Of a stretch of 64,000 bases of DNA, positions 1,912 through 2,418 are shown one piece after another; the first letter of the stretch is position 1; each line of letters opens with the position of its first letter. This DNA is from a virus, in IMG/VR virus record IMGVR_UViG_3300036846_001176, positions 29,048-93,047 of that record. One strand, 5' to 3'. The notes below the pieces were generated by a model. The model saw only the letters and a program-made list of their open reading frames with translations, did no database searches and was not told the DNA's origin. A program made the position numbers and the translations under genes.

Positions 1912-2418
1912 TCAAGCCGGCGCAGGTGCGTGCTCTGCCCCGCCCGGTGGCATGCGCCGTTGGCGAGGTGGGGTAATACGGGCCGCAGCCGCCCGCTTCC
2001 GACGTGGACGGACAGCGTCCGCCGCACGCCAGACCTGGGCCAGCTCCTCCAGGAGCTGGTACTTGCGCTTGAGCCGCTCGAGTTCTTGCAGCGCGTCATC
2101 CATCATGACCTCCCGCAGGCTGCGGGTGGCAACCACGGTGGTGGTCTCGCGGTAGCCGCCGCCGTTGGCCCGATCCACCGTAAGCGAAATGAATTCGTGC
2201 GTGCCACTGGCGACGATGATGTGCATGCTGATTAGCTGCCGCGCCTGCCACAGCCGGTGCTCATGGGCGGCAATGCTGTCGTCCCACTGAAACCGGCTGT
2301 GCAGCCCCGACTTCGGATGACGCTGCGCCCACTCCACCACCGGCTCGGCGTGGATCAGACCCTTGTCATCCTTCAGACGGAGCAGTTCGGCACGGATCTG
2401 CCGTCGTGTCGCGGGCAT
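1912..2418 (-). CDS. Accessory protein coupled to the RAMP-like gene (168 aa)
   Basis: ATG at 2418 overlaps the TGA of the upstream gene; motif LHSRFQWDDSIAAHEHRLWQARQLI; stop abuts the array. Confidence 0.75.
   Translation of the reverse strand: MPATRRQIRAELLRLKDDKGLIHAEPVVEWAQRHPKSGLHSRFQWDDSIAAHEHRLWQARQLISMHIIVASGTHEFISLTVDRANGGGYRETTTVVATRSLREVMMDDALQELERLKRKYQLLEELAQVWRAADAVRPRRKRAAAARITPPRQRRMPPGGAEHAPAPA

What the first reader, a model, noticed from the sequence alone, without database searches (positions are those of the whole stretch)
1912..2418. Translationally coupled accessory gene between the RAMP gene and the array
Seen: TGATG-type overlap with the RAMP gene, a W-D-D-x-x-A-A-x-x-x-R-L-x-Q-A-R core, and a basic disordered tail whose stop lies at the array edge. 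Inference: candidate guide-processing, loading or effector subunit.
Basis: inference. Interest (0 to 1): 0.6.

Follow-up and report, generated by a model that had tools for sequence, protein, structure and literature searches.

The report
Accessory gene of a phage VIPR system
The small gene between the Cas7-like gene and the five-base repeat array is the helper ("vap") gene of a VIPR system, a CRISPR-related, RNA-guided silencing system of phages first described in 2026, so it is a new example of a known kind whose exact job is still unknown.

Summary
Window 1912-2418 (minus strand) encodes a 168-aa protein. Its ATG shares one base with the stop of the upstream gene (TGATG), it carries the WDDxxAAxxxRLxQAR motif, and it ends in a basic tail one base before the repeat array.

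The locus is a VIPR system in a complete 104.6-kb soil phage:
- The upstream gene is a Vipr, a Cas7-like RAMP related to SUSP1 Vipr.
- The array is a "staggered" GGY-NN guide array of 17 units.

The gene is therefore a Vipr-accessory (vap) gene. Its family is very large (13,820 cluster representatives). In 113 non-identical viral loci, 110 also carry a Vipr gene and 96 a same-strand GGY-NN array.

The model shows a winged-helix-like domain, a helical hairpin and a basic tail. The putative recognition helix and a GGGYR wing are nearly invariant across hosts.

I found no sequence similarity to Vap1 of SUSP1, the only Vap tested so far, and I could not assign a published vap number or VIPR type. 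"Guide processing" is not shown.

My best inference is a nucleic-acid-binding cofactor that strengthens silencing. This scan has already found VIPR loci with winged-helix accessory genes in other genomes.

The parts
1912..2418 (-). vap gene: 168-aa Vipr-accessory protein (P0001), stop codon included
   Evidence: Translation. phrog_15946, E 6e-18. 48 homologues and 13,820 cluster representatives. Linked to Vipr and arrays.
2416..2420 (-). TGATG stop/start overlap between vipr and vap (shared base 2418)
   Evidence: Read from the sequence. In 64 of 107 vipr-then-vap loci the gap from the vipr stop to the start of the vap match is 30 nt or less.
2239..2286 (-). Codons for residues 45-60, WDDSIAAHEHRLWQAR: start and body of the long third helix, the putative recognition helix of the winged-helix-like domain
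   Evidence: Alignment A1: W45, A50 and Q58 invariant; R55 and R60 at least 90%. Helix 49-66 in the model.
2149..2163 (-). Codons for residues 86-90, GGGYR: glycine turn with Tyr-Arg in the putative wing
   Evidence: G88, Y89 and R90 invariant; G86 and G87 at least 90%. Strand 89-91 in the model.
1915..2010 (-). Codons for the basic, low-confidence C-terminal tail (residues 137-168)
   Evidence: 9 K/R against 1 D/E, pI 12.0. In 194 family members the tail is net positive in 75%. pLDDT 65-76.
2418..3263 (-). vipr gene: 281-aa Cas7-like RAMP (P0050) with a basic, disordered N-terminal extension of about 80 residues
   Evidence: phrog_4652. Profile hit to PDB 36pp_D 'SUSP1 Vipr protein', E 2.9e-5. 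hhalign to SUSP1 Vipr, prob 92.6%, E 4.5e-7 over 173 columns. Model matches Csm3/Cas7 chains, Foldseek E 5e-5.
1004..1896 (-). vrRNA array: GGY-NN pentamers in 17 staggered units of 39-59 nt, each ending GGCAG with its last G shared with the next unit
   Evidence: Period 5. Phase analysis and junction list. No Rfam family, so no hammerhead ribozymes.
961..993 (-). Strong hairpin closing the array: candidate terminator or protective 3' end
   Evidence: MFE fold of 940-1030 on the minus strand. The same loop motif with different stems occurs twice in the array of the related phage L004.
4639..4666 (-). Only promoter-like site upstream on this strand: possible start of the operon 82-aa ORF, Gp157-like, 160-aa ORF, vipr, vap, array
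   Evidence: Consensus scan, 9 of 12 matches. Weak, since consensus matches are not evidence of function.

Best explanation
The gene encodes a Vipr-accessory protein (Vap) of a phage VIPR system. On one strand, with almost no spacing, lie vipr (2418-3263), vap (1912-2418), a staggered GGY-NN guide array (1004-1896) and a closing hairpin. They are most likely one transcript. This much is shown or follows directly from the sequence and from linkage.

The protein has three parts: a winged-helix-like domain (residues 1-97), a helical hairpin (99-136) and a basic tail. The helix RLWQAR and the wing GGGYR are almost invariant in phages of Proteobacteria, Actinobacteria and Cyanobacteria. From this I infer that it reads something that is the same in all these systems, not a phage-specific operator. 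Candidates are the GGY scaffold, Vipr itself, or the unusual nucleic-acid geometry of a target-bound Vipr-vrRNA filament.

My preferred mechanism, by analogy with Vap1 of phage SUSP1, is a nucleic-acid-binding cofactor that acts once the filament has found its DNA target and makes silencing stronger or longer lasting. Identity as a Vap is about 0.9. The effector-stage mechanism is about 0.45.
For: Identity of the system:
- The Vipr profile matches the solved SUSP1 Vipr, and the model matches Cas7/Csm3.
- The array has period 5 and reads GGY-NN on the gene strand.
- The record is a complete virus with a large terminase subunit gene.

Linkage:
- 110 of 113 non-identical vap loci have a Vipr gene, and 107 are in the order vipr then vap.
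- In 80 of 107 loci an array starts within 150 nt after vap.
- 96 of 113 have a same-strand array within 2.5 kb, against 14 with only short arrays on the opposite strand.
- 73 of 75 Vipr loci carry the vap.
- The pair is also present in a Mu-like phage, in mycobacteriophage Quico, in Gordonia phage UmaThurman and in cyanophage Cy-LDV1.

Fold and conservation:
- The AF2 model has pLDDT 89.5.
- Residues 1-97 match many winged-helix domains at Z 5-6.2, with 60-79 residues aligned at about 3 A. Forkhead domains head the Foldseek list.
- The conserved residues lie in helix 3 and the wing, and the tail is basic.

Literature:
- vap genes are defined as partners of vipr, and those of some VIPR types are predicted DNA binders (10.64898/2026.04.26.720920).
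- vap1 enhances lambda restriction (same paper).
- SUSP1 lacking vap1 loses about 10^4 in plaquing on a satellite lysogen (10.64898/2026.10.15.759431).
Against: - Nothing here shows binding to DNA, RNA or Vipr.
- The winged-helix match is weak. Z under 8 can reflect only a common arrangement.
- There is no detectable sequence similarity to Vap1, the only Vap with genetic data, so the functional analogy is indirect.
- Two Vipr loci with arrays lack this gene (L150, L151), so it is not strictly required everywhere.
- The published type and vap number of this clade could not be determined, because the figures and data tables are not held.
Confidence: 0.7

Rival explanations
1. vrRNA biogenesis or loading factor. 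The protein binds the nascent array RNA or its GGCAG|GC junctions. It would help cut or delimit the 17 tail-less, staggered units, or help nucleate or cap Vipr filaments on them.
For: - The array starts 1-20 nt after the vap stop in most loci.
- This clade's arrays are long and continuous (median 60 GGY units per locus).
- The window's array has no Rfam ribozyme and no obvious repeated tail between units, so boundaries must be set in some way.
- The invariant helix and wing would suit an invariant RNA motif such as GGY.
- Some winged-helix matches bind RNA, for example SelB.
Against: - No nuclease fold or family was found, and the 48-member alignment has no invariant His or acidic residue.
- In SUSP1, Vipr and vrRNA alone form the RNP and repress (10.64898/2026.04.26.720920).
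- The one-base phase shift at each junction could by itself break the Vipr filament and leave trimming to host RNases. This point is inference.
- Vipr-plus-array loci without vap exist.
Confidence: 0.2
2. Transcription regulator. It would be an ordinary winged-helix repressor or activator that controls the VIPR operon, transcription through the array DNA, or other early phage genes.
For: The fold is winged-helix-like. The gene lies in early or lysogeny-control regions near cro, antirepressor and excisionase genes in several phages.
Against: The putative recognition helix is the most conserved part of the protein across very distant phages. Operator-specific regulators vary there. The near-obligate linkage is to vipr, not to any regulatory region.
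Confidence: 0.08
3. A functionally unrelated early gene that merely travels with vipr.
For: Nothing specific. The function is untested.
Against: 97% co-occurrence in both directions across phages of several bacterial phyla, despite varying gene order (vipr-vap-array, vipr-array-vap, vap-vipr-array).
Confidence: 0.02

Closest known systems
Vap1 of the type II VIPR systems of Escherichia phage SUSP1 (agp038, NC_028808 28031-28471) and the P. fulva / LESphi2 clade
   Same: - A small protein (146-163 aa) encoded directly after vipr on the same strand and followed by GGY-NN guides.
- A basic C-terminus.
- A conserved G-x-G-Y turn after a long helix and a strand, in the same order as in this family.
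- The VIPR paper lists winged-helix-like and helix-turn-helix-like folds among Vap proteins of types II, III and VII, without my being able to tell which type has which.
   Different: - No significant sequence or profile similarity (BLASTP E 0.4; hhalign prob under 1%).
- BFVD gave no match outside three uncharacterized proteins that are probably members of this family.
- I found few relatives of Vap1: 3 clusters in the protein database and, among phage records, only Felix O1-like phages and a few Pseudomonas phages. This family has 13,820 cluster representatives.
- Vap1 guides each carry their own tail. Here the array is staggered and tail-less.
The other published vap families (vap2-6), in particular those of VIPR types VI and VII, described as predicted DNA-binding proteins (bioRxiv 10.64898/2026.04.26.720920, Fig. 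5A, fig. S21)
   Same: An accessory gene next to vipr, with a predicted DNA-binding fold. The paper describes staggered arrays as an architecture outside type II (fig. S18).
   Different: Sequences, figures and data tables of those families are not held here. I could not tell which numbered family this is, or whether it is one of them.
Cas11 small subunits of class 1 CRISPR effector complexes (comparison from my own knowledge, not tested here)
   Same: A small, basic, largely helical protein encoded beside the Cas7-family backbone gene. It is not needed for guide binding, yet it stabilises the target-bound state. This is what the gene might work like.
   Different: No Cas11 chain appeared among the fold matches. 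The N-terminal domain here is winged-helix-like, and there is no evidence that it joins the filament.

Membership tests
VIPR system (Vipr + vap + vrRNA) | A Vipr protein: a minimal RAMP with RRM core, G-loop and thumb, related to solved Vipr | tested here: met
   Profile hit to PDB 36pp_D, SUSP1 Vipr. hhalign prob 92.6% to SUSP1 Vipr and 94% to LESphi2 Vipr, including the G-loop. Foldseek E 5e-5 to Csm3/Cas7.
VIPR system (Vipr + vap + vrRNA) | Tandem GGY-NN pentamers on the gene strand next to vipr | tested here: met
   Period 5. 147 chained GGY units at 1000-1910 on the minus strand, in 17 staggered units.
VIPR system (Vipr + vap + vrRNA) | A small accessory gene adjacent to vipr and conserved with it | tested here: met
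   110 of 113 vap loci have a Vipr gene, and 73 of 75 Vipr loci have the vap.
VIPR system (Vipr + vap + vrRNA) | vrRNAs are expressed and bound by Vipr, and they silence matching DNA | not testable with these tools
   It needs RNA sequencing, pull-down and reporter assays.
Vap1 family (type II VIPR) | Sequence homology to SUSP1 or P. fulva-type Vap1 | tested here: not met
   BLASTP E 0.4. hhalign prob 0.6%, 0.2% and 0.5%.
Vap1 family (type II VIPR) | The same fold as Vap1 | tested here: inconclusive
   BFVD search gave only three significant hits, all uncharacterized and probably this family's own members. The shared helix-strand-GxGY layout is only a lead.
Winged-helix nucleic-acid-binding domains | Three-helix bundle followed by a beta-hairpin wing | tested here: inconclusive
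   Many winged-helix chains match at Z 5.0-6.2 over residues 1-97. Forkhead domains match at Foldseek E 0.3, TM about 0.5 by target. These scores are below the level at which a match is safe.
Winged-helix nucleic-acid-binding domains | Binds DNA or RNA through helix 3 and the wing | not testable with these tools
   Only indirect support: conserved R55, Q58 and R60 in helix 3, and R83, Y89 and R90 in the wing.
PHROG phrog_15946 (unknown function) | Profile match over most of the protein | tested here: met
   E 6.2e-18, residues 6-133 on profile positions 9-140 of 151.
Guide-processing ribonucleases (Cas6-like or other) | A nuclease fold or catalytic signature | tested here: inconclusive
   No such family in Pfam, NCBIfam or PADLOC, and none among the fold matches. 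The 48-member alignment has no invariant His or acidic residue. Absence from these lists does not exclude it.

The most novel reading that the evidence does not exclude
This very large Vap family, with its invariant RLWQAR helix and GGGYR wing, may be a dedicated reader of a feature common to all its VIPR systems. One possibility is that it reads the GGY scaffold or the one-base-overlap junctions, and so sets guide boundaries in tail-less staggered arrays. Another is that it reads the R-loop triplex of a target-bound filament, which would make it the VIPR counterpart of the Cas11 small subunit. It may also be an ancient, diverged homologue of Vap1, so that a winged-helix cofactor would belong to the ancestral VIPR core.
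Probability: 0.15. Interest if true: 0.65.

Novelty: new member of a known kind. Interest (0 to 1): 0.4.

Why it matters
VIPR systems are a newly described class of RNA-guided DNA recognition and are proposed to predate CRISPR. What the accessory proteins do is named as an open question in the structural paper (10.64898/2026.04.26.720927). This analysis shows that the accessory gene of one widespread Vipr clade belongs to a very large, almost always vipr-linked family. It gives the family's conserved surface (helix RLWQAR, wing GGGYR) and shows that the family is not recognisably the tested Vap1. That gives experimenters a defined family and point mutants to test. It also allows re-annotation of "hypothetical" gene pairs in cultured phages such as Quico, UmaThurman and Cy-LDV1. 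It does not reveal a new kind of system.

Tried and rejected
- **Complex prediction.** Vipr residues 80-281 with Vap residues 1-140, both as alignments, scored 0.00 in two runs: no verdict either way.
- **RNA evidence.** No RNA holder is listed among public runs. Three soil-metagenome DNA runs hold the stretch.
- **PADLOC 'Cas4d' hit** (E 1.5e-4). Only 1 of 48 family members gives it, so I treat it as chance. The PADLOC 'Cas56g' hit of the Vipr gene is also weak (E 0.025).
- **Named families.** Pfam, NCBIfam and the PDB sequence search gave nothing for the Vap family. The ESM Atlas feature and shape searches returned only unnamed viral clusters.
- **Homology to Vap1.** Pairwise and profile comparisons were negative. 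The database held only 3 Vap1 relatives for building a profile. BFVD gave no match outside three uncharacterized proteins, probably members of this family.
- **VIPR type and vap number.** The papers' figures and data tables are not held, so no assignment was possible.
- **Rfam on 800-4800.** Nothing found, so there are no hammerhead ribozymes between guides.
- **Genome scan.** The first scan of genome contigs with A1 failed for lack of a conserved pattern. The repeat with A4 found only five loci, in MAGs of Bradyrhizobium, Rhizobium, Dehalococcoidia and Terracidiphilus. That is too few for a host statement.
- **Alternative start.** The TTG at 2445 was rejected on the homologue alignment.

Full report
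**Observation**

The minus strand of window 1912-2418 encodes a 168-aa protein, P0001.
- Its ATG (2418-2416) shares base 2418 with the TGA (2420-2418) of the upstream gene, giving TGATG.
- Residues 45-60 read WDDSIAAHEHRLWQAR.
- Residues 137-168 are basic (9 K/R, 1 D/E, pI 12.0) and of low model confidence.
- The stop is at 1912-1914, and GGC pentamers begin at 1910 on the same strand.

All three elements of the observation are confirmed. The other ORFs that overlap this stretch I take to be by-products of the high G+C content.

**What the locus is**

The "array" at about 960-1910 has period 5. On the gene strand it reads GGY-NN.

The upstream gene (2418-3263, P0050, phrog_4652, no Pfam) is a Vipr:
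- It has more than 940 homologues at about 60% identity.
- A profile of these hits PDB 36pp_D, "SUSP1 Vipr protein" (E 2.9e-5).
- hhalign to the Vipr of phage SUSP1 (NC_028808, agp039) gives 92.6% probability over 173 columns, G-loop included. It gives 94% to the Vipr of Pseudomonas phage LESphi2.
- The AF2 model matches Csm3 and type VII Cas7 chains (Foldseek E 5e-5).

The literature search led to three 2026 preprints on VIPR (Viral Interference Programmable Repeat) systems. These consist of a Vipr protein, a vipr-accessory gene (vap) and vrRNAs made of GGY-NN repeats. The vrRNAs recognise dsDNA by a rule of pairing two bases and skipping one (10.64898/2026.04.26.720920).

The record is a complete 104,559-bp virus with a single copy of the gene. 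A large terminase subunit gene lies at 6227-7762. The finding is therefore a vap gene.

**Array anatomy**

Phase analysis finds recurrent shifts of minus one base at GGCAG|GC. These divide 1892-1004 into 17 units of 39-59 nt, that is 8-12 pentamers each, with one shared G between neighbours. This matches the "staggered arrays" of the paper's fig. S18.

There are no Rfam ribozymes. A strong hairpin at 961-993 closes the array. The only promoter-like site on this strand is at 4666-4639. That suggests one operon: an 82-aa ORF, a Gp157/Gam-like gene, a 160-aa ORF, vipr, vap and the array.

*Starting from vap.* A profile of 48 homologues (A1) fetched 80 IMG/VR loci. Of these, 76 had a same-strand Vipr gene, and most had same-strand GGY-NN arrays.

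*Starting from Vipr.* Of 79 loci fetched with the Vipr profile, 73 of the 75 with room downstream carry the vap, and 72 have arrays.

*Pooled and dereplicated, 113 loci:*

| Measure | Count |
|---|---|
| Loci with a Vipr gene | 110 of 113 |
| Order vipr then vap | 107 |
| Vipr stop to start of vap match 30 nt or less | 64 of 107 |
| Array starting within 150 nt after vap | 80 of 107 |
| Any same-strand array within 2.5 kb | 96 of 113 |
| Loci with an opposite-strand array (control; 8-10 units where seen) | 14 |

The median is 60 GGY units per locus.

The order of the parts varies: vipr-vap-array, vipr-array-vap, or vap-vipr-array.

*Exceptions:*
- L150 and L151 have Vipr and an array but no vap.
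- L071 and L072 have vap and a 13-unit array but no Vipr.
- L037 has a truncated vap.

*Other carriers.* The pair also occurs in the closest relative L004 (62% identity, followed by a 1.25-kb array), in a Mu-like phage, in mycobacteriophage Quico (gp57/gp58), in Gordonia phage UmaThurman (gp39/gp41) and in cyanophage Cy-LDV1 (g34/g33). All of these are annotated as hypothetical.

An exhaustive profile search finds 13,820 cluster representatives at E <= 0.001 and 11,191 at 1e-10. The best 150 are all 138-228 aa long.

**The protein**

The AF2 model has mean pLDDT 89.5 and pTM 0.73.
- Residues 1-97 resemble winged-helix domains. VIA-align gives Z 5.0-6.2 with 60-79 residues aligned at about 3 A to ESCRT-II, MecI, IclR, PadR, Z-alpha, SelB and others. 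Forkhead domains head the Foldseek list at E 0.3. These scores are weak.
- Residues 99-136 form two helices, and the rest is a tail.
- The invariant or nearly invariant residues cluster in the long third helix (A50, R55, Q58, R60, I63) and in the putative wing (S78, D82, R83, G86-G88, Y89, R90).
- Family-wide, the tail is net positive in 75% of 194 members.
- No Pfam, NCBIfam or PDB sequence match exists. A PADLOC "Cas4d" hit is confined to this one member and is taken as chance.

**Relation to the tested Vap**

SUSP1 Vap1 (agp038) and its LESphi2 relative show no significant similarity to this family. BFVD gave no match outside three uncharacterized proteins, probably members of this family.

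hhalign does line up helix 3, the following strand and GxGYR with a similar run in Vap1 (…IYLVASMGVGYRVVE…), but at E 0.13. This is a lead, not evidence.

The paper says that staggered arrays lie outside type II, and that the Vaps of types II, VI and VII are predicted DNA binders. I could not assign the type or the vap number.

**Mechanism**

Shown:
- The gene is a conserved partner of this Vipr clade and its arrays.
- It is very probably co-transcribed with them and translationally coupled to vipr in this phage.

Inferred:
- The putative recognition surface is nearly invariant across phages of distant hosts. The ligand should therefore be common to all these systems: the GGY scaffold, Vipr, or the target-bound structure. 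A phage-specific operator is unlikely.
- In SUSP1, Vipr and vrRNA alone form the RNP and repress. Vap1 enhances restriction (10.64898/2026.04.26.720920), and it is needed for protection against a satellite during real infection (10.64898/2026.10.15.759431).
- By analogy, I favour a nucleic-acid-binding cofactor that acts at the target-bound stage.

A role in delimiting guides of the tail-less staggered array is the main rival. An ordinary transcription regulator is a minor one.

**Other observations**

Two further soil samples hold the locus. In them the array and vipr are almost unchanged, but a patch of vap (residues 92-111) carries nine amino-acid changes, and two pentamers are missing at 1407.

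**Verdict**

This is a new member of a known, recently described kind. This scan has already reported VIPR loci with winged-helix accessory genes in other genomes. I had identified the system independently before looking those up.

Noticed in passing
window 961-993 (minus strand); L004 about 7283-7310 and 7630-7660: A strong hairpin closes the array (GGGGCGCAGC AACGGUUCACCG GCUGCGCCCC). The related phage L004 has the same inner motif AACGGTTCACCGG twice inside its array, with different outer stems that still pair. This suggests a conserved structured element: a terminator, a 3' cap or a sub-array boundary.
   Followed up: partly
window 3024-3263 (minus strand), Vipr residues 1-80: This Vipr has a basic, disordered N-terminal extension of about 80 residues (pLDDT about 46-58). 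It contains an AT-hook-like stretch, RRRGRPPK. Most relatives are 200-250 aa and lack most or all of it.
   Followed up: no
window 1952-2144 and 1407: In two other soil metagenome runs the array and vipr are nearly identical. A patch of vap, however, has about 30 substitutions that give nine amino-acid changes in residues 92-111 (TTT to MSA, A97T, MD to LQ, LQ to ID), and one proline is inserted in the tail. Ten bases (two pentamers) are missing at 1407. It looks like a small recombination patch in the helical part of Vap.
   Followed up: partly
L001 (Gordonia phage UmaThurman) 4653-4971; L002 (Quico) 3972-4225; L003 (Cy-LDV1) 4687-4876 and 5474-5634: Cultured phages carry unannotated VIPR loci. 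UmaThurman gp39/gp41, Quico gp57/gp58 and Cy-LDV1 g34/g33 are Vipr/Vap pairs with GGY-NN arrays of 28-61 units. UmaThurman 'gp40' (locus 4665-4988) is an ORF called on top of the 61-unit array.
   Followed up: partly
L071/L072 3777-4453; L150/L151: Incomplete forms exist. One is a vap homologue with a 13-unit array but no Vipr gene, next to a terminase-like ATPase (L071/L072). Another is Vipr plus arrays totalling 73 (L150) or 85 (L151) units with no vap.
   Followed up: partly
window 3298-4610 (minus strand): Upstream in the same putative operon lie an 82-aa ORF, a Gp157 / Mu Gam-like protein (3780-4349; PF05565, E 7e-11) and a 160-aa Cys-containing protein with no family (3298-3780). The closest relative, L004, keeps Gp157-like, vipr and vap in the same order, so the neighbourhood may be more than chance.
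   Followed up: no
window 5249-5959 (+): A 236-aa protein that is extremely rich in Pro, Gly and Trp and has no family match lies between the divergent early operon and the terminase gene.
   Followed up: no
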